Shown: positions 2,524 to 8,402 of the stretch, piece by piece
How the letters are laid out: the number at the start of each line of letters is the position of its first letter
How positions within the stretch are numbered: position 1 is the stretch's first letter
Made by a program: the position numbers and the translations under genes
Virus record (IMG/VR): IMGVR_UViG_3300020112_000918
Coordinates: 1-64,000 of that record
Source: a virus
Lineage: Duplodnaviria > Caudoviricetes
Reading direction: 5' to 3' (one strand)
DNA length: 64,000 bases
Notes under the pieces: model-generated
Told to the model about the DNA's origin: nothing
Databases searched by the model: none
The model's input: the letters and a program-made list of their open reading frames with translations, nothing else

Positions 2524-2577
2524 TAAAGGACAGGGAAACAAACCACCCTGACCTTTTTTGTTTTGGAGGATAACAAA

Positions 2578-3546
2578 ATGAGGATTTTAATCTCGCACAG
2601 AGATCTTGACGGACTAGGAGTCATTGTTCTACGAGACTACTTTAACTTGCCTTTTGATGCAGTTTATTCCTGGGACTACGGATTTATCGAAATTCCAGAA
2701 TGTAAAAAGATTATTGACGCTGCCGACGAAATTATTATGGCAGACCTTTCCATTCCGGAAGAAAGTTATGATGAACTTATTAAAGCCGGAAAGCACGTTG
2801 AAATCTATGATCACCACGATACAGCTAAATGGCTCGACACAAAAGAAGGCAGTGTCCACGATGAAGAACGCTGCGGAACAAAAATCTTCTTTGAAGAATA
2901 CGTGCTTCCACGTGTAGGACGATTTAAGCCGATTGTAAAACAGTTTGTAAACTTAGTAGATGTTTATGACCGTTGGGTTCTTGACTCTCCTTTGCGTAAG
3001 GAATCAGAAAACCTTCAGAGAGTCTGGACAGCTTACGCAAACTGGAACTGTCCGGACAACATTATGCAGCATGACCGATTTATTATGCAGATGTGCCGAA
3101 AGTTTGACAGTATGACATCTTTTGCTTGGAACGTCACAGAGCAGTCTTACATTGATACAGCAATTCAGAAAGAAGAAAACTCTTATCAACAAGCGTTAAA
3201 CGTTATTCAAGACCGAGTAGACAATCAGGGAAGAACTTTCGGTATCTGGAAAGCGTGGGGTAGAATTTCTATTACAGCGTCTCGCATTCTTAGAGAAACA
3301 GACCGTTATGATTACCTTATCTGTCTTCAGGATTCTCCTGACAACTGGGGAAAAGTTTCTGTAAGATGTCTTGAAGAAAAGTTTGACGTAACTCAACTTG
3401 CTTCCGTAGGAGGACATAAAGCTGCGGGTGGAACAACTCTTTCTGCAGAAGATGCGACAGCTTTGTGGGAAAGTCCTTTGTGCTTTAAGTACGGGGCTGA
3501 CTGGAAAGAGGGCGAAAGTCCTATTGAACCTTGTAAATCATTTTAA
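2578..3546 (+). CDS. DHH/DHHA1 family phosphoesterase (NrnB-like)
   Basis: Motifs HRDLDG, ADLS, YDHH, SVR, GGHKAAGG. Confidence 0.85.
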   Translation: MRILISHRDLDGLGVIVLRDYFNLPFDAVYSWDYGFIEIPECKKIIDAADEIIMADLSIPEESYDELIKAGKHVEIYDHHDTAKWLDTKEGSVHDEERCGTKIFFEEYVLPRVGRFKPIVKQFVNLVDVYDRWVLDSPLRKESENLQRVWTAYANWNCPDNIMQHDRFIMQMCRKFDSMTSFAWNVTEQSYIDTAIQKEENSYQQALNVIQDRVDNQGRTFGIWKAWGRISITASRILRETDRYDYLICLQDSPDNWGKVSVRCLEEKFDVTQLASVGGHKAAGGTTLSAEDATALWESPLCFKYGADWKEGESPIEPCKSF

Positions 3547-3557
3547 GGAGAAAATAA

Positions 3558-4211
3558 ATGACAGAAGATCAGCAGAAAAAACTTGATGCAACTCTTTTGA
3601 ACATTCAGAAGAAGTATGGCAAAGGATCCATTTCTATGTTTGGTAAGAACCAAGTTAAAGTAGAAAGGGTTCCAGTCAGTTCAATGAACTTGACTGACAT
3701 GATGGGAGGTGGCTTTCCACGTGGACGTATGATTGAGATCTACGGTCCAGAAAGTTCCGGAAAGACTACTCTGGCAGAATACATCGGAGGACAGTGTCAG
3801 CAGCATTATTACGAAGACAAACAGCGTAATGGTATGGTCGCTTACGTAGACGTAGAACACGCTCTTGATCCAGTATTCGCAGAATCTGTAGGACTTCACA
3901 TGGAAGACGTTTTGTTCTCTCAGCCAGACTCTGCAGAACAGGCACTTGACATCGTAAACGACTTGCTCCTTTCCGATGTAGTCGACCTTATCGTAGTTGA
4001 CTCAGTAGCTGCTCTTGTTCCACAGGCAGAAGCAGACGGAGAAATGGGAGATCAGCAGATGGGTCTTCAGGCTCGTCTTATGTCTAAGGCTTGTCGTAAG
4101 CTCCAGGCAAACATGACAAGTAAGTCTGCTTCAATTATTTGGATTAACCAGATTCGTGAAAAGATTGGATGCGTCGCACCTGATACGATGATTAGCTGGT
4201 TGAAAAAATAA
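3558..4211 (+). CDS. recA: RecA N-terminal part fused to 13-aa split-intein N-fragment
   Basis: GPESSGKTT Walker A, IVVDSVAAL, GLQARLMSKA, INQIREKIG then CVAPDTMISWLKK-stop. Confidence 0.92.
   Translation: MTEDQQKKLDATLLNIQKKYGKGSISMFGKNQVKVERVPVSSMNLTDMMGGGFPRGRMIEIYGPESSGKTTLAEYIGGQCQQHYYEDKQRNGMVAYVDVEHALDPVFAESVGLHMEDVLFSQPDSAEQALDIVNDLLLSDVVDLIVVDSVAALVPQAEADGEMGDQQMGLQARLMSKACRKLQANMTSKSASIIWINQIREKIGCVAPDTMISWLKK
4170..4208 (+). mobile_element. split intein N-fragment (13 aa)
   Basis: Block-A-like CVAPDTMI begins exactly where RecA homology stops (after KIG). Confidence 0.85.
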
Positions 4212-4229
4212 GTTTTTCTGATTTATAAG

Positions 4230-4236
4230 CCTATTT
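4230..4236 (+). promoter_or_regulatory. phage promoter motif CCTATTT (class 3, putative late); representative of about 18 copies
   Basis: Copies at 4230, 11397, 19273, 24260, 26212, 33352, 36264, 37950, 41679, 43672, 47640, 49279 (+) and 50061, 53130, 53706, 58107, 59700, 61676 (-); they precede spike, tape measure, baseplate, tube, sheath and lysis genes. Confidence 0.8.
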
Positions 4237-4240
4237 ATCT

Positions 4241-5227
4241 ATGAACAGAATAGACAATCTTAAGCAGCACCCAGGAATCTGCTCTAAGTGTGAGGTTTAC
4301 TCAGAAGTTCTTTGGAAAGGAAAATGTCCTTCCTGTTTTAGGAAGGATTTCAAGTGGTCTTCAGAGGTTAAAGAAAAGATTAGGAAAGCGAATACTGGAA
4401 AAAACAATTCCTCCAGAGGTAAAGCTATCTCAAAAGGTCTTCAACAAAAACCTTTGACCGAAAAAGAGTGGGAACTTTTAAGAAAATTTCATGCAGAGCA
4501 TCCTTGGATTTCTAATGTGGAGGTTTTTGTAAAAAGATCAGAAATAGAAAAGGTATATGGTGAACGTTTAAAGAAAGCTAAATTAGAAGAAATTTGGGAG
4601 AAAATAATAAAGCCTTCACAAGATAAAGATAGAAAGAGCTTACCTCTCAAAGTTCAAATGTGGAGTGATGAAACCATTAAAAACTTTCTATTGGATATAG
4701 ACAGGGTTGAATACTTTAGTGGAACAGCTCAATCTTTTTTCGCAGCAAAGTATAACGTAAAAAGTGTAAACGCATTTGTACACTATGTCGAAGTTTTTTC
4801 CGGTAAAAAGTTATTTGGATTTCCCTCTACTTCTAAACCACGACCAAAACAGACTTGGATAGAAAAGTGGTGTCGAGAGTGTTTACTTGAGTTTAAAGTT
4901 AGGTTTCGTGCAGAACGATATGTAAATAACTGTAAATGGAGAGTAGATTTTCTTGTCGGTAAAAATTTAGTAATTGAAATGAATGGAACATATACTCATG
5001 GAGATGCAAGAGTTTATGAAGAAGAAGACTTAAACGATTTTCAAAAAGCTAATAAGAAAAGAGACAAGGAAAAAATTTCGTGGCTAAAAAATAACGGCTA
5101 TGAAGTTTTGGAAATTTGGGAAAAGGACTTAGAGGAACATCCTCGAAAGTGTAAAAAACAGCTAAAAGAATTTGTAGGAGACTATATCAATGGAGCAGAA
5201 AACGACCTCTTTAGAGACATTGTTTAA
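4241..5227 (+). CDS. free-standing homing endonuclease, Vsr/DUF559-like
   Basis: C-terminal TWIEK...VDFLV...VIEMNGTYTHG...GYEVLEIWEKDL; N-terminal CxxC/CxxC and NUMOD-like segment; lies between the two recA halves. Confidence 0.8.
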   Translation: MNRIDNLKQHPGICSKCEVYSEVLWKGKCPSCFRKDFKWSSEVKEKIRKANTGKNNSSRGKAISKGLQQKPLTEKEWELLRKFHAEHPWISNVEVFVKRSEIEKVYGERLKKAKLEEIWEKIIKPSQDKDRKSLPLKVQMWSDETIKNFLLDIDRVEYFSGTAQSFFAAKYNVKSVNAFVHYVEVFSGKKLFGFPSTSKPRPKQTWIEKWCRECLLEFKVRFRAERYVNNCKWRVDFLVGKNLVIEMNGTYTHGDARVYEEEDLNDFQKANKKRDKEKISWLKNNGYEVLEIWEKDLEEHPRKCKKQLKEFVGDYINGAENDLFRDIV

Positions 5228-5633
5228 AGAAGGATTTGGACTGGACTGGAAACAGATGGCTATAGGTGAAGCCGTGGATGTTTCTGACAAAAATGTGTTT
5301 GTAAGTTCTTACTCACATGAAGAAAATAAAGAAGTTCAAGCAAAAGTACTTAAAGCTGTAAGAAAACCAGACGCTAAAAAATGTGTTTTCTATACAGAAG
5401 GAAAACGAATGTTTGATGGATCCCCAGATCATAAAGTTTGGGCAAAATTGCATTTGGATAAAGACGCTGCTTATTTTACAGCTGAACAGCTTTCTAAAAA
5501 AACTTTTTATTTATTTAACGGGAAAGATTGGAAAGCATCTTCTGTAGAAATTACAAAAGAATTTATTCCAATTTTGGATGTAGAGATTGAAAATACCCAT
5601 AATTATTTTTCTAATGGGGTTTTGTCTCATAAT
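5190..5633 (+). mobile_element. split intein C-fragment
   Basis: Ends His-Asn followed by Thr(+1) at 5634. Confidence 0.88.
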
Positions 5634-6200
5634 ACTATTTACGGTAACCCTGAAGTAACCACGGGAGGTAACGCACTCAAGTTCTACGCTTCAATTCGTT
5701 TTACTATCCGTCGTAAAGAAAACATCACAGGTATGAACGCAGATGATGTTATTGGAATTGTTTCGGCTCTTAAGACAATCAAGAACAAAGTAGCTCCACC
5801 TTTTAAGACCTGTGAACTGAAACTTCTTTTCGGTAAGGGCTATCAGGTAGAAGAAGAATATGTTACAGCTTTTGTAAAACGCACTCTTATTGAAAAATCA
5901 GGTAGTTGGTTCAGCTGGAACTATAAAGACGTTTCTGGAAAAGATGCTTCTCACAAAGAACAGGGTATGGACAATGTAGTTGAATGGTTCAAGGACAACC
6001 CTGTAATCTTTGAACAGTTTAAGCGTAAAGTCCAGGACATGATTGCTCAGGAATCTAACGTCATTACTCAGACAGAAGAAAACGAAGAAGAAGTTATCAA
6101 GCAGCAGACTAAACTTGAAAAAGAAGCCTTTGCTGATTTACACACTCCTTCAGGAGCAGCAGACCTTGCCTCCGCAGCATTAGACGCAGCAAGCAACTAA
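5190..6200 (+). CDS. recA: split-intein C-fragment (148 aa) fused to RecA C-terminal part
   Basis: SPDH block B, ILDVEIENTHNYFSNGVLSHN blocks F/G, then T-IYGNPEVTTGGNALKFYAS...IKNKVAPPFK; GGAG SD. Confidence 0.92.
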   Translation: MEQKTTSLETLFKEGFGLDWKQMAIGEAVDVSDKNVFVSSYSHEENKEVQAKVLKAVRKPDAKKCVFYTEGKRMFDGSPDHKVWAKLHLDKDAAYFTAEQLSKKTFYLFNGKDWKASSVEITKEFIPILDVEIENTHNYFSNGVLSHNTIYGNPEVTTGGNALKFYASIRFTIRRKENITGMNADDVIGIVSALKTIKNKVAPPFKTCELKLLFGKGYQVEEEYVTAFVKRTLIEKSGSWFSWNYKDVSGKDASHKEQGMDNVVEWFKDNPVIFEQFKRKVQDMIAQESNVITQTEENEEEVIKQQTKLEKEAFADLHTPSGAADLASAALDAASN

Positions 6201-6296
6201 ACTTTATCCGAACTAAAAAAGAGGGGATTAGGGCGAACGACAAAAATCGTTCGCTCTTTTTGTTTCTGCAGGAATTATAAAAGTAGAGGATAATCT

Positions 6297-8402
6297 ATGA
6301 AATTTACTTATATTAAACTTATCAACTTCGGTAACAACAAGAATTTTGAGAAGACTTTGGATAAGCCTTTGCTTATTTTATCTGGGGATAACGGTAACGG
6401 AAAAAGCACTGTTATCAAAGCAATTCGTCTTGCAGTATTTGACTCTTATGACGGAGTTTTAAGCGATTACGTCAATTGGGAAGCAAAAGAATTTTACATT
6501 GAAATCGGATTTAACCACAAGGCAGTAGATTACAAGATTACTATCCGATACGATGGATCAACAGAGCGTAAACTTGAGTTCGGGTCAGAAACTTACTCAG
6601 GCGATGAAGCTAAGCGAAAACTCAAGGAAATTCTGGATCCAACCTTATTAAAAGCAGCTATGCTTTCTTTGGAACAGGAAACAGACGTTGTAAACGCAAA
6701 GCCCGCAGAAAGACGTGATCACCTTAAGAAAATCTACAACTTAGACTTCAAGCAGCCTTTAGCAGATATTGATGCTGAACTTAAAGAGCATTCTTTGAAT
6801 GTAGCTAAACTTACTTCTACTGTTGAGAGCTTAGAAAATAAGACGTATCTGGAACCAACGAAGCCAGAAAAACCTTTTTCAGAAGAAGTGAAAGCAACTT
6901 ACGAAAAAGAGCTTGCTTCTATTCAGGTAAATCTTGCTGACCTTAAAAAACAGTCCGAACAAGCAAAGAGCAACCGTGAGCAGTATCAGAGATTACTTGA
7001 CGAACAAACTTCCCTGACTTCTAAAAAGGACTCCGAGAAGCAATCCTTGGACGTGCAGAAAGCCAAACTTGCTAAACTTCCAGAAGACGAGCAGAATGAA
7101 AAGATACAGCTTGAAACTCAGTTAAAGGACTGTGCTCAGGATAGAGCTCGTATTGAAGGAGAGATAGGAGAAAGCATTCAGCAAAAACAGAAAGAACTTG
7201 CTTCTACAAAATCCAGCCTTAAGCGTGTAGGCGTATTCGATCAGGATTCTTATGTAACTCTTAAAGCTGAAGTTACTTCTTTGGAGAACAAACTTTCTGA
7301 CTTAAGAAATGCAACAGACGTTTGTCCTACTTGCGGACAGAGTATAAACTCTCCTGAACATATTGCAAAGAGAGACGAAGAGATTAAAACCTTAAGCTCT
7401 ACTCTTGAAGAAAAGCGTAAAGAGTATGAACAGAAAACCTCTGCCAAGAAAGTTTACGATGAAGCCGTTACTCACAACCAGAAAGTAAAGGACACTTGTG
7501 CTGAACTGGAAAAAGAAATTACCACTTTAACAGCAGACAAGGAAAAGCACCTTTTAACTTGTGAGTCTAACACTAAGTCTGTAGAAACTGCTATCGGAGT
7601 TCTTTCAGAAAAATACGCTACTGAAAAGTTGCACGTAGAAGAGCTTATTCAGTCTATTGAAAAGAACATTAATCAGATAGAAGAAAATCTGGCAAAGAAC
7701 TTGTCTGAAGCAGAAAGTCTTAAAGGTCAGATTTCTGATATCGATTACTCTTCTGAGATTAAGAAACTTGAAGACGAAGTTGCAGATTACGATGCTAAAC
7801 TTAAGAGCTTTGCTGACTACGAAAGTCAGGTAGTCTTCTACAAAGACACTATGGCTAAGGTCGACGAACAGAAAAAAGAAGATGCTAAGCGTCTTGATGA
7901 AATTAAGACATCTCTGCAGGAAGAATCGGCTACAGTAAAAGACCGTGAAATAGAAGCTAAGCTGCTTAAAACGGACTTCCCTGTTTACGTAATTTCAAGA
8001 GTTGTGAAAGACCTTGAAAAGCGTATGAATGAATTCCTTAAGAAAACCTACGGTGGTCGCTATACTGTAAAAATGAAGGACAAGGGAAATGCTCTTCACA
8101 TTGTTTACGGTCCGAAAGATCAGGATGTAGCTCTTTCTTCTGGCTATGAAAGAAGTTTGTTCAACCTTGCTTTTAAGATTTCAATTTCTAGAGCTATTGG
8201 TAACAAGTGTCTTGTTCTTGATGAAGCAGACAGTGCTGCCAGTCCACGTAACGCTAAACTATTTTATGAGGTGCTTGCTCAGACAGTGGGAACTTACTTT
8301 GATCAGGTCATCCTTGTATCTCATAAAGATGAAGTAAAAGAGATGCTGGAAAACGAGTACGGGGCAGAAGTCCTCACTTTTGTAGGAGGTGTTGCTTCGT
8401 GA
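6297..8402 (+). CDS. SbcC/Rad50/gp46-like SMC ATPase
   Basis: GDNGNGKS Walker A, coiled coils, CPTC zinc hook, LSSGYE signature, LVLDE. Confidence 0.9.
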   Translation: MKFTYIKLINFGNNKNFEKTLDKPLLILSGDNGNGKSTVIKAIRLAVFDSYDGVLSDYVNWEAKEFYIEIGFNHKAVDYKITIRYDGSTERKLEFGSETYSGDEAKRKLKEILDPTLLKAAMLSLEQETDVVNAKPAERRDHLKKIYNLDFKQPLADIDAELKEHSLNVAKLTSTVESLENKTYLEPTKPEKPFSEEVKATYEKELASIQVNLADLKKQSEQAKSNREQYQRLLDEQTSLTSKKDSEKQSLDVQKAKLAKLPEDEQNEKIQLETQLKDCAQDRARIEGEIGESIQQKQKELASTKSSLKRVGVFDQDSYVTLKAEVTSLENKLSDLRNATDVCPTCGQSINSPEHIAKRDEEIKTLSSTLEEKRKEYEQKTSAKKVYDEAVTHNQKVKDTCAELEKEITTLTADKEKHLLTCESNTKSVETAIGVLSEKYATEKLHVEELIQSIEKNINQIEENLAKNLSEAESLKGQISDIDYSSEIKKLEDEVADYDAKLKSFADYESQVVFYKDTMAKVDEQKKEDAKRLDEIKTSLQEESATVKDREIEAKLLKTDFPVYVISRVVKDLEKRMNEFLKKTYGGRYTVKMKDKGNALHIVYGPKDQDVALSSGYERSLFNLAFKISISRAIGNKCLVLDEADSAASPRNAKLFYEVLAQTVGTYFDQVILVSHKDEVKEMLENEYGAEVLTFVGGVAS

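What the first reader, a model, noticed from the sequence alone, without database searches (positions are those of the whole stretch)
3558..6200. Fractured recA: atypical split intein with a 13-residue N-fragment, separated by a homing endonuclease gene
Seen: RecA breaks in the L2 DNA-binding loop region (EKIG | TIYGNPE). The first gene ends in CVAPDTMISWLKK-stop; the second starts with a 148-aa intein body (SPDH, D..HNY, HN-Thr). A Vsr-like nuclease ORF fills the gap, with 29 nt of spacer on one side and an overlap on the other. Established: fractured phage genes with split inteins and intervening nucleases are known, and atypical split inteins have short N-fragments (from memory about 15-25 aa for VidaL/AceL-TerL types). 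Inference: RecA is assembled by protein trans-splicing; 13 aa may be among the shortest natural N-fragments, useful for protein semisynthesis.
Basis: partly seen in the sequence, partly recalled or inferred. Interest (0 to 1): 0.85.

Follow-up and report, generated by a model that had tools for sequence, protein, structure and literature searches.

The report
Phage recA split by short-fragment intein
An uncultured 134-kb phage encodes its only RecA recombinase as two genes with a selfish nuclease gene between them, and a self-splicing protein element cut very unevenly (13 + 148 residues) most likely stitches the halves together; it is real, but one member of a large family in an already described layout.

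Summary
There are three same-strand ORFs: RecA-N plus a 13-residue intein start (3558-4211), a 328-aa homing endonuclease (4241-5227), and a 148-residue intein body plus RecA-C (5190-6200). The two RecA parts abut on the Pfam profile.

No intron is detectable, so protein trans-splicing is the best reading, although nothing here tests it directly.

A 97%-identical contiguous allele (P0005) shows that the nuclease cassette sits between intein residues 10 and 11. Only 10 of the 13 N-fragment residues are intein-derived. Structural alignment puts the break at the engineered "S1" site.

The nuclease belongs to the EDxHD (Vsr-like) family; its only solved relative is I-Bth0305I, from a recA intron.

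This locus is not unique:
- At least 82 protein clusters begin at the same break, and 81 of 84 checked carry RecA.
- DNA-confirmed relatives have N-fragments of 11-18 residues.
- Some relatives keep the split after the nuclease gene has decayed.
- In one relative clade the intein body has dN/dS of 0.03-0.05.

The shortest characterised natural N-fragment is 15 residues, so 13 is shorter than any characterised one. It is not the family minimum, which is 11.

This scan has already reported the same kind on at least six other genomes. Verdict: a new member of a known kind, with moderate practical interest.

The parts
3558..4169 (+). recA N-extein (204 aa: Walker A/B and core up to the start of loop L2)
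   Evidence: Pfam PF00154 profile positions 1-195, E 2.5e-70. It is 90% identical to the N-extein of the contiguous allele P0005. An AAGGAG ribosome-binding site lies upstream.
4170..4208 (+). Intein N-fragment, 13 aa. 4170-4199 is intein-derived (10 aa, block A, Cys1). 4200-4208 (3 aa) plus the stop at 4209-4211 come from the inserted cassette.
   Evidence: P0005 reads straight from residue 10 of the intein into residue 2 of the C-fragment. Relatives share C-[VI]-x-P-[DE]-T in these 10 residues.
4212..4240 (+). 29-nt spacer before the endonuclease gene. It has no Shine-Dalgarno sequence and no significant hairpin. It contains TGATTTATAA (4219-4228), also seen before the nuclease gene of L013/L017.
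   Evidence: (z 0.2).
4241..5227 (+). Free-standing homing endonuclease gene (328 aa). It has an N-terminal four-Cys ribbon (residues 14-32), NUMOD3 (38-62) and a C-terminal EDxHD/Vsr-like nuclease domain (about 207-316). Its last 35 nt run into intein-derived DNA in another frame.
   Evidence: NUMOD3 scores 20.9 bits against a cut-off of 20.4; DUF559 and MTES_1575 are sub-threshold. PHROG endonuclease families match. The only PDB hit is 3R3P, the I-Bth0305I catalytic domain, E 1e-4, with D236, E246, H253 and D275 aligned to its active-site positions. It is homologous over its full length to the nuclease of L013 (29% identity, E 6e-28).
5190..5633 (+). Intein C-fragment, 148 aa. It has a cassette-derived Met plus 147 intein residues: block B Ser78..His81, block F 129-140, His147-Asn148. 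Its own AGGAG site lies 9 nt upstream, inside the nuclease ORF.
   Evidence: Pfam Intein_splicing matches the C-terminal blocks below threshold. In the AlphaFold model of P0005 the intein part has pLDDT about 95. It matches solved inteins at Z 12-14.7. Lys59, His81, Asp130, Ser146 and Asn148 are invariant and His147 is nearly invariant (at least 90%) in 84 relatives.
5634..6200 (+). recA C-extein (188 aa plus stop), starting with the +1 Thr nucleophile in loop L2
   Evidence: Pfam PF00154 profile positions 193-261 (E 7.8e-21) and RecA_C. It is colinear with the intein-less P0162.
6230..6257 (+). Terminator-like hairpin after recA-C. No terminator-like site with 6 or more G-C pairs lies between the three ORFs on the + strand.
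   Evidence: 11-pair stem with 6 G-C pairs, followed by a T run.

Best explanation
This is a 'fractured' phage recA gene. A mini-intein sits at the start of the RecA L2 DNA-binding loop. A 993-bp cassette (4200-5192) has been inserted between intein residues 10 and 11. The cassette carries a free-standing EDxHD (Vsr-like) homing endonuclease gene, a stop codon for the upstream piece and a start codon for the downstream piece.

How it most likely works:
1. The three ORFs are probably co-transcribed. The two RecA pieces have good ribosome-binding sites and the nuclease gene has none.
2. The 13-residue N-fragment supplies the first two beta-strands and the catalytic Cys1. It docks into the 148-residue C-fragment to complete the Hint fold.
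3. Canonical class-1 chemistry follows: an acyl shift at Cys1, transfer to Thr+1, cyclisation of Asn148, then an O-N shift. This joins the exteins into a 392-aa RecA with an intact L2 loop.
4. The endonuclease spreads the cassette, or the whole intein plus cassette, by cutting alleles that lack it.

Shown: the anatomy, the homologies, the fold, the insertion point, the family distribution and selection in relatives. Inferred: trans-splicing, co-transcription and nuclease activity.
For: Anatomy and RecA continuity.

Contiguous allele: P0005 pins the insertion point. Its intein is 97% identical to the window's.

Splicing residues: Cys1, block B His, block F Asp and the terminal Asn are present and invariant, and the penultimate His is nearly invariant.

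Fold and split site: the C-fragment part aligns to solved inteins at Z 12-14.7, starting at their residue 11-13 (Ssp DnaB, Npu DnaE, Mtu RecA, gp41-1). It aligns from residue 17 of VidaL, whose N-fragment is 16 aa. This is the S1 split site.

Engineered precedent: S1 inteins with 10-12-aa N-fragments do trans-splice (PMC3620165).

Spread: the full-library HMMER search gave 178 clusters. At least 82 of 153 inspected begin at the break, and 81 of 84 carry RecA.

Same layout in diverged loci: L013/L014/L015/L017 and the IMG/VR loci.

Split outlasts the nuclease gene: the split is kept where the gene has decayed to 73-82 aa (L032, L038) or is absent (L027).

Selection in the L013 clade: dN/dS is 0.03-0.05 for the C-fragment and 0.12 for the nuclease.

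No intron: no Rfam intron match at E up to 10.
Against: - No direct evidence of splicing, transcription or nuclease activity exists for this locus.
- AlphaFold did not model the first 10 intein residues with confidence, because the alignment had no depth there. Docking of the N-fragment is therefore inferred from homology to solved inteins.
- Only 4 of 14 engineered S1 splits were active, so an S1 break does not guarantee function.
- The selection estimates come from a relative clade about 40% identical to the window, not from the window's own clade.
- dS is near saturation for some extein comparisons.
Confidence: 0.8

Rival explanations
1. Dead gene: the endonuclease insertion inactivated recA, and the pieces are decaying relics that are not joined.
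For: No experimental data exist for this locus. The contiguous allele at 97% intein identity shows the insertion is recent in this clade, so decay might not yet be visible.
Against: All three ORFs are intact, and both RecA pieces have ribosome-binding sites. The same break is conserved in at least 82 clusters. It survives loss of the nuclease gene in L027, L032 and L038. The C-fragment has dN/dS 0.03-0.05 in the L013 clade. These halves are the only recA in the record.
Confidence: 0.07
2. Non-covalent assembly: the intein fragments only hold the two RecA halves together, without splicing. A T4-like phage assembles its split NrdA in this way, using domains from a mobile element.
For: There is precedent for fragment assembly without splicing (PMC3045599, listed).
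Against: Every catalytic residue of class-1 splicing is conserved across the family. That would be unnecessary for mere association. A roughly 160-residue domain left inside the L2 DNA-binding loop would probably block RecA function; this last point is inference.
Confidence: 0.06
3. RNA-level repair: the cassette is an intron (group I or II) whose removal restores a contiguous cis-splicing intein.
For: Members of this endonuclease family do live in group I introns of recA, as I-Bth0305I does (PMC2677866, PMC3239194).
Against: There is no Rfam intron match in 3000-7000 at E up to 10. Within the 993-bp cassette only the first 41 nt lie outside the nuclease ORF, which also runs 35 nt past the cassette's 3' end, so there is no room for a ribozyme core. 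The cassette supplies an in-frame stop, and a start codon with its own ribosome-binding site. This pattern is conserved in L013/L017. HEG-less relatives are still split (L027).
Confidence: 0.02

Closest known systems
Fractured genes of environmental phages (Dassa, London, Stoddard, Schueler-Furman & Pietrokovski 2009, PMC2677866)
   Same: The order is identical on one strand: host-N plus intein-N, a 27-51-nt spacer (29 nt here), a free-standing Vsr-like endonuclease gene, then intein-C plus host-C with overlapping frames. The host is a phage DNA-metabolism enzyme.
   Different: RecA was not among the fractured hosts found in that paper's text; there recA appears only with intron-borne nucleases. 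The paper's own split positions were not checked here; in this locus the break is at the S1 position, not the canonical mid-intein site.
VidaL split intein (16-aa N-fragment; PDB 6VGV) and PolB16 OarG (15 aa, 'shortest characterised'; PMC10189870, PMC13014065)
   Same: These are natural, atypically split inteins broken just after the second beta-strand (S1). The model aligns to VidaL from chain residue 17 (Z 13.1).
   Different: The N-fragment here is 13 aa, with 10 intein-derived. There is no detectable sequence kinship to VidaL, and the structural score is no higher than to other inteins. The host protein and insertion site differ. This intein uses Cys1/Thr+1, whereas PolB16 is cysteine-less. 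This intein is not characterised experimentally.
Engineered S1 split inteins (Ssp DnaB S1/M86, Ssp GyrB, Ter ThyX; PMC3620165)
   Same: They have the same break point and the same fragment sizes (10-12 aa plus 122-162 aa). The model aligns to Ssp DnaB from residue 12.
   Different: Those are man-made. This one arose naturally through insertion of an endonuclease gene.
I-Bth0305I, EDxHD homing endonuclease of the recA group I intron of Bacillus phage 0305phi8-36 (PMC3239194; PDB 3R3P)
   Same: It is the only solved relative of the nuclease here (E 1e-4). Both have an N-terminal NUMOD region, a C-terminal Vsr-like domain and aligned active-site residues. Both live in recA at the L2-loop coding region.
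   Different: I-Bth0305I is carried in an intron and cuts the recA L2 sequence. The carrier here is a split intein, and the target is unknown: it could be intein DNA or recA DNA.
Mycobacterium tuberculosis RecA intein (PDB 2IN0 and others)
   Same: It is an intein in RecA with the same fold (Z 13.9).
   Different: It is contiguous and carries an internal endonuclease domain in nature. It sits at a different insertion site (from memory, not tested). Sequence identity is only 18-19% in the structural alignment.

Membership tests
Class 1 intein (Hint domain) | Cys/Ser at intein position 1 directly after the N-extein | tested here: met
   The Cys codon at 4170-4172 follows the last RecA residue matched by Pfam. 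Every N-fragment relative inspected also has Cys here.
Class 1 intein (Hint domain) | Block B (T/S-x-x-H), block F, the penultimate His and the terminal Asn, plus a +1 Cys/Ser/Thr | tested here: met
   Ser78..His81, block F at 129-140, His147, Asn148 and Thr+1 are present. His81, Asp130 and Asn148 are invariant and His147 is nearly invariant in 84 sequences.
Class 1 intein (Hint domain) | Hint (horseshoe) fold | tested here: met
   In the AlphaFold model of the contiguous allele the intein part has pLDDT about 95. VIA-align gives Z 12-14.7 and rmsd 1.9-3.0 over 121-145 residues to many solved inteins.
Class 1 intein (Hint domain) | Protein-splicing activity | not testable with these tools
   This needs expression followed by Western blot or mass spectrometry.
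Atypically split intein, S1 type | Two separate polypeptides, with the break after beta-strand 2 and a short N-fragment | tested here: met
   The stop is at 4209-4211 and a new start with its own ribosome-binding site is at 5190. The C-fragment aligns from residue 11-13 of solved inteins and from residue 17 of VidaL.
Atypically split intein, S1 type | Close kinship to VidaL or PolB16 OarG | tested here: inconclusive
   Neither appears in the PDB sequence search at E up to 10. VidaL scores Z 13.1, no better than unrelated inteins.
Fractured gene (Dassa et al. 2009) | Same-strand order of host-N/IntN, a short spacer, a free-standing endonuclease gene, then IntC/host-C | tested here: met
   a 29-nt spacer (the paper gives 27-51 nt) and a 38-nt overlap of the nuclease and IntC ORFs.
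EDxHD (Vsr-like) homing endonuclease | C-terminal Vsr-like nuclease domain with the conserved acidic and His active-site residues | tested here: met
   3R3P is the only PDB hit (E 1e-4). D236, E246, H253 and D275 align to the active-site positions; the crystal construct carries D196A and H213A. The Pfam DUF559 and MTES_1575 matches are below their cut-offs.
EDxHD (Vsr-like) homing endonuclease | N-terminal NUMOD DNA-binding motifs | tested here: met
   NUMOD3 at residues 38-62 scores 20.9 bits against a cut-off of 20.4.
EDxHD (Vsr-like) homing endonuclease | Site-specific cleavage of the cassette-less allele | not testable with these tools
   This needs an in vitro cleavage assay.
Group I / II intron | A ribozyme core recognisable by covariance models | tested here: not met
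   There is no intron family among the Rfam matches at E up to 10 in 3000-7000. The cassette is almost wholly coding.

The most novel reading that the evidence does not exclude
The 13-residue fragment, with only 10 intein-derived residues, and its 11-residue relatives may be functional. They would then be the shortest natural split-intein N-fragments, below the published 15-aa record. They would belong to a large, apparently undescribed reservoir of natural S1-split RecA/UvsX inteins.

The 97%-identical contiguous allele may be the 'empty site' of an endonuclease that homes into an intein rather than into the host gene. That would make it a parasite of a parasite.
Probability: 0.5. Interest if true: 0.5.

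Novelty: new member of a known kind. Interest (0 to 1): 0.38.

Why it matters
Short N-fragments can be made by peptide synthesis, so they are valued for protein semisynthesis and labelling. The 2023-2026 literature treats natural ones as rare and gives 15 aa as the record.

This locus and its relatives offer natural 11-13-aa fragments. They come with a matched contiguous allele (P0005), which gives a before-and-after comparison of splitting.

Biologically, the RecA L2 loop of phages appears to be a hotspot. In close relatives, inteins at two or three adjacent sites, split and contiguous forms, and EDxHD or GIY-YIG nuclease genes all turn over. In both clades examined the intein is much better conserved than its host gene, which points to recent horizontal spread.

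None of this changes how such systems are understood. The scan has already reported the same kind several times.

Tried and rejected
Dead ends:
- **The look-up of encoding contigs:** I could not fetch the DNA of the contiguous allele P0005 or of the close split alleles P0002-P0004. The empty-site comparison is therefore at protein level only.
- **Close relatives in phage collections:** blastn against GenBank phages found only short RecA-core matches. The first IMG/VR scan with the single protein found nothing.
- **Alignment A2:** MAFFT misplaced the N-fragments, so I discarded it. A3 has no depth over the N-extein and the first 10 intein residues, and these were modelled poorly.
- **Papers not held:** Neugebauer 2017 and Burton 2020 on VidaL were not available. 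I took the VidaL sequence and length from a supplement and from later papers. My recollection that a VidaL UvsX split intein exists could not be checked.

Ideas considered and rejected:
- **Intron:** no Rfam match.
- **Read-through or frameshift joining of the ORFs:** the N and C pieces share a frame, but stop-bounded short ORFs in that same frame (for example 4290-4457) show it is interrupted between them.
- **Regulatory hairpin in the spacer:** z-score 0.2.
- **A second recombinase making this gene dispensable:** there are no other RecA matches in the record.

I also looked for the I-Bth0305I target consensus in the window's L2 codons by eye. The match is only partial, so no claim is made.
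Full report
**1. Observation**

The window holds three consecutive + strand ORFs exactly as described.
- ORF 3558-4211 encodes 204 residues of RecA followed by 13 residues starting with Cys, then TAA.
- A 29-nt spacer follows.
- ORF 4241-5227 encodes a 328-aa nuclease.
- ORF 5190-6200 starts 38 nt before the nuclease stop, in another frame. It encodes 148 residues ending His-Asn, then Thr and 188 residues of RecA.

Pfam RecA matches profile positions 1-195 in the first ORF and 193-261 in the third. An intein-less relative (P0162, 83% identical in the N part) is colinear across the joint. The break lies at the start of the L2 loop. PMC3239194 describes the adjacent F-G-x-P codons as L2.

The window is bases 1-64000 of a 133,795-bp IMG/VR virus record, estimated 79% complete. 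The two halves are its only RecA matches.

**2. The element is a split intein, not an intron**

The C-fragment carries block B (Ser78..His81), block F, His147-Asn148 and a Thr+1. The N-fragment carries Cys1 and block A.

An Rfam scan of 3000-7000 at E up to 10 gave no intron family.

The cassette is almost entirely the nuclease ORF. It provides the stop for the first piece. It also provides an ATG with its own AGGAG ribosome-binding site for the second piece. The nuclease gene itself has no Shine-Dalgarno sequence. The same pattern is seen in the diverged loci L013 and L017.

A terminator-like hairpin follows recA-C at 6230-6257.

**3. Where the cut is**

A search with the intein body found P0005, a 552-aa RecA with a contiguous mini-intein 97% identical to the window's. 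In P0005 the tenth intein residue (Trp) is followed directly by the residue that comes after the initiator Met of the window's C-fragment.

The insert is therefore 4200-5192 (993 bp). The last three residues and the stop of the N-fragment, and the Met of the C-fragment, belong to the cassette. The nuclease ORF ends 35 nt inside intein-derived DNA.

I folded P0005 with an alignment of 28 C-fragment relatives.
- The intein part (215-361) has pLDDT about 95.
- The N-extein and the first ten intein residues had no alignment depth and are unreliable.
- VIA-align against PDB inteins gave Z 12-14.7.
- The model starts at residue 214/215, which aligns to residue 11-13 of Ssp DnaB, Npu DnaE, Mtu RecA, gp41-1 and NrdJ-1.
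- It aligns to residue 17 of VidaL, whose N-fragment is 16 aa.

This is the S1 site used for engineered split inteins with 10-12-aa N-fragments. Four of 14 such engineered inteins were active (PMC3620165).

**4. The endonuclease**

Pfam gives NUMOD3 just above its cut-off, and sub-threshold DUF559/MTES_1575. PHROGs gives endonuclease families.

The only PDB sequence hit is 3R3P (E 1e-4), the catalytic domain of I-Bth0305I. This is the prototype EDxHD homing endonuclease, from a group I intron in a phage recA. The crystal construct carries D196A and H213A. Allowing for that, the window's D236, E246, H253 and D275 align with the active-site residues.

I-Bth0305I cuts the recA L2 coding sequence next to its intron. 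That site lies a few codons from the intein sites seen here. Whether the window's nuclease targets recA or the intein is unknown.

**5. Family context**

A full HMMER search of 1.84 billion representatives with the 148-aa body gave 178 clusters at E up to 0.001. At least 82 of the 153 I inspected begin at the break. Of 84 such proteins, 81 carry Pfam RecA.

At least two or three adjacent insertion sites are used:
- before the T-x-[YF]-G-N-P-E segment, as in this window;
- after that segment;
- one or two residues further on.

Close relatives (P0001, P0006, P0007) combine the window's split intein with a second, contiguous intein seven residues downstream. P0159 lacks the first intein and is split at the second site.

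DNA-confirmed loci with the same layout:

| Locus | N-fragment (aa) | Notes |
|---|---|---|
| L013, L014, L015, L017 | 11 | homologous 344-347-aa nuclease |
| L026 | 11 | GIY-YIG-like nuclease (weak match) |
| L027 | 11 | no nuclease gene, 20-nt gap |
| L025, L034, L038 | 14 | |
| L032 | 15 | |
| L031, L035 | 16 | |
| L028, L029, L030 | 18 | second split further on |

In L032 and L038 the nuclease gene has shrunk to 73-82 codons, yet both RecA/intein pieces stay intact.

Protein-only N-fragments end 11, 11 and 15 residues after Cys1 at the window's site, and 12 and 14 residues at the second site.

**6. Selection and mobility**

| Comparison | Intein C-fragment | Nuclease | Exteins |
|---|---|---|---|
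| L013 / L016 / L017 | dN/dS 0.03-0.05, 92-93% aa identity | dN/dS 0.12 | dN/dS 0.11-0.20, 54-74% identity |
| Window's clade | 97-99% identity | not computed | C-extein 74-79% identity |

dS is near saturation for some pairs in the L013 clade comparison.

The intein and its nuclease are thus both constrained and younger than the host-gene divergence. This fits an active, horizontally spreading element, and a split intein that must work.

**7. Comparison with the literature**

The layout is that of Dassa et al. 2009 (PMC2677866).

Recent papers give natural atypical N-fragments as 15-37 aa. They list PolB16 OarG at 15 aa as 'record-short' and VidaL at 16 aa (PMC13014065, PMC10189870).

Full-text searches for split inteins with UvsX or RecA found no description of this RecA family. 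Key subscription papers are not held, so I do not claim the family is unpublished.

**8. Earlier notes of this scan**

Notes from this scan report the same kind on at least six other genomes, with N-fragments of 13-24 aa. There is no look-alike of this particular intein.

**9. Verdict**

- The 13-aa fragment is shorter than any characterised natural one.
- It is not the shortest in the family.
- Only ten of its residues are intein-derived.

This is a new member of a known kind. What it adds is practical: a matched contiguous allele and very short fragments. Trans-splicing remains inferred.

Noticed in passing
Outside the window: G000:C1:126317-129517 (L022): A family-A DNA polymerase gene lies in at least three ORFs. 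One ends with a canonical-size (about 100 aa) intein N-part. The next begins with a roughly 37-aa C-part followed by Cys. The gap is about 110 nt with no nuclease gene. This is probably a second, canonically split intein in the same phage.
   Followed up: partly
window 5634-5660; relatives P0001, P0006, P0007, P0159: Close relatives carry a second intein, contiguous or split, seven residues downstream, whose +1 residue is Thr. The window has Val at that position, so it could not host that intein as it stands. Several other relatives also have Val there.
   Followed up: partly
window 4219-4228; L013 about 1233-1242; L017 about 348-357: A shared TGATT[TC]ATAA motif lies about 12-17 nt before the start of the SD-less nuclease gene in two lineages whose nucleases are only 29% identical. 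It may be a control element carried with the cassette.
   Followed up: no
L028, L029, L030 (IMG/VR): A UvsX/RecA-type gene is fractured twice. There is an 18-aa N-fragment, a 343-aa nuclease gene and a C-fragment. A few residues later the middle piece ends with a second short N-fragment. The gene is therefore in at least three pieces.
   Followed up: no
L027 (IMG/VR): The RecA N-piece of 639 aa contains a large contiguous intein ending just before the K-I-G segment. It is followed by an 11-aa N-fragment of a second, split intein, with only a 20-nt gap and no nuclease gene.
   Followed up: no
L032 and L038 (IMG/VR; L032 is from a 298-kb contig): The nuclease gene between the intein halves is reduced to a 73-82-codon remnant of the Vsr-like domain. 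Both RecA/intein ORFs stay intact, so the split outlives its nuclease.
   Followed up: partly
window 2563-3546 and 6297-8402: recA is flanked by a DHH/DHHA1-like phosphoesterase (weak Pfam matches) and a 701-aa SbcC/AAA_15-type ATPase. This looks like a recombination and repair gene block.
   Followed up: no
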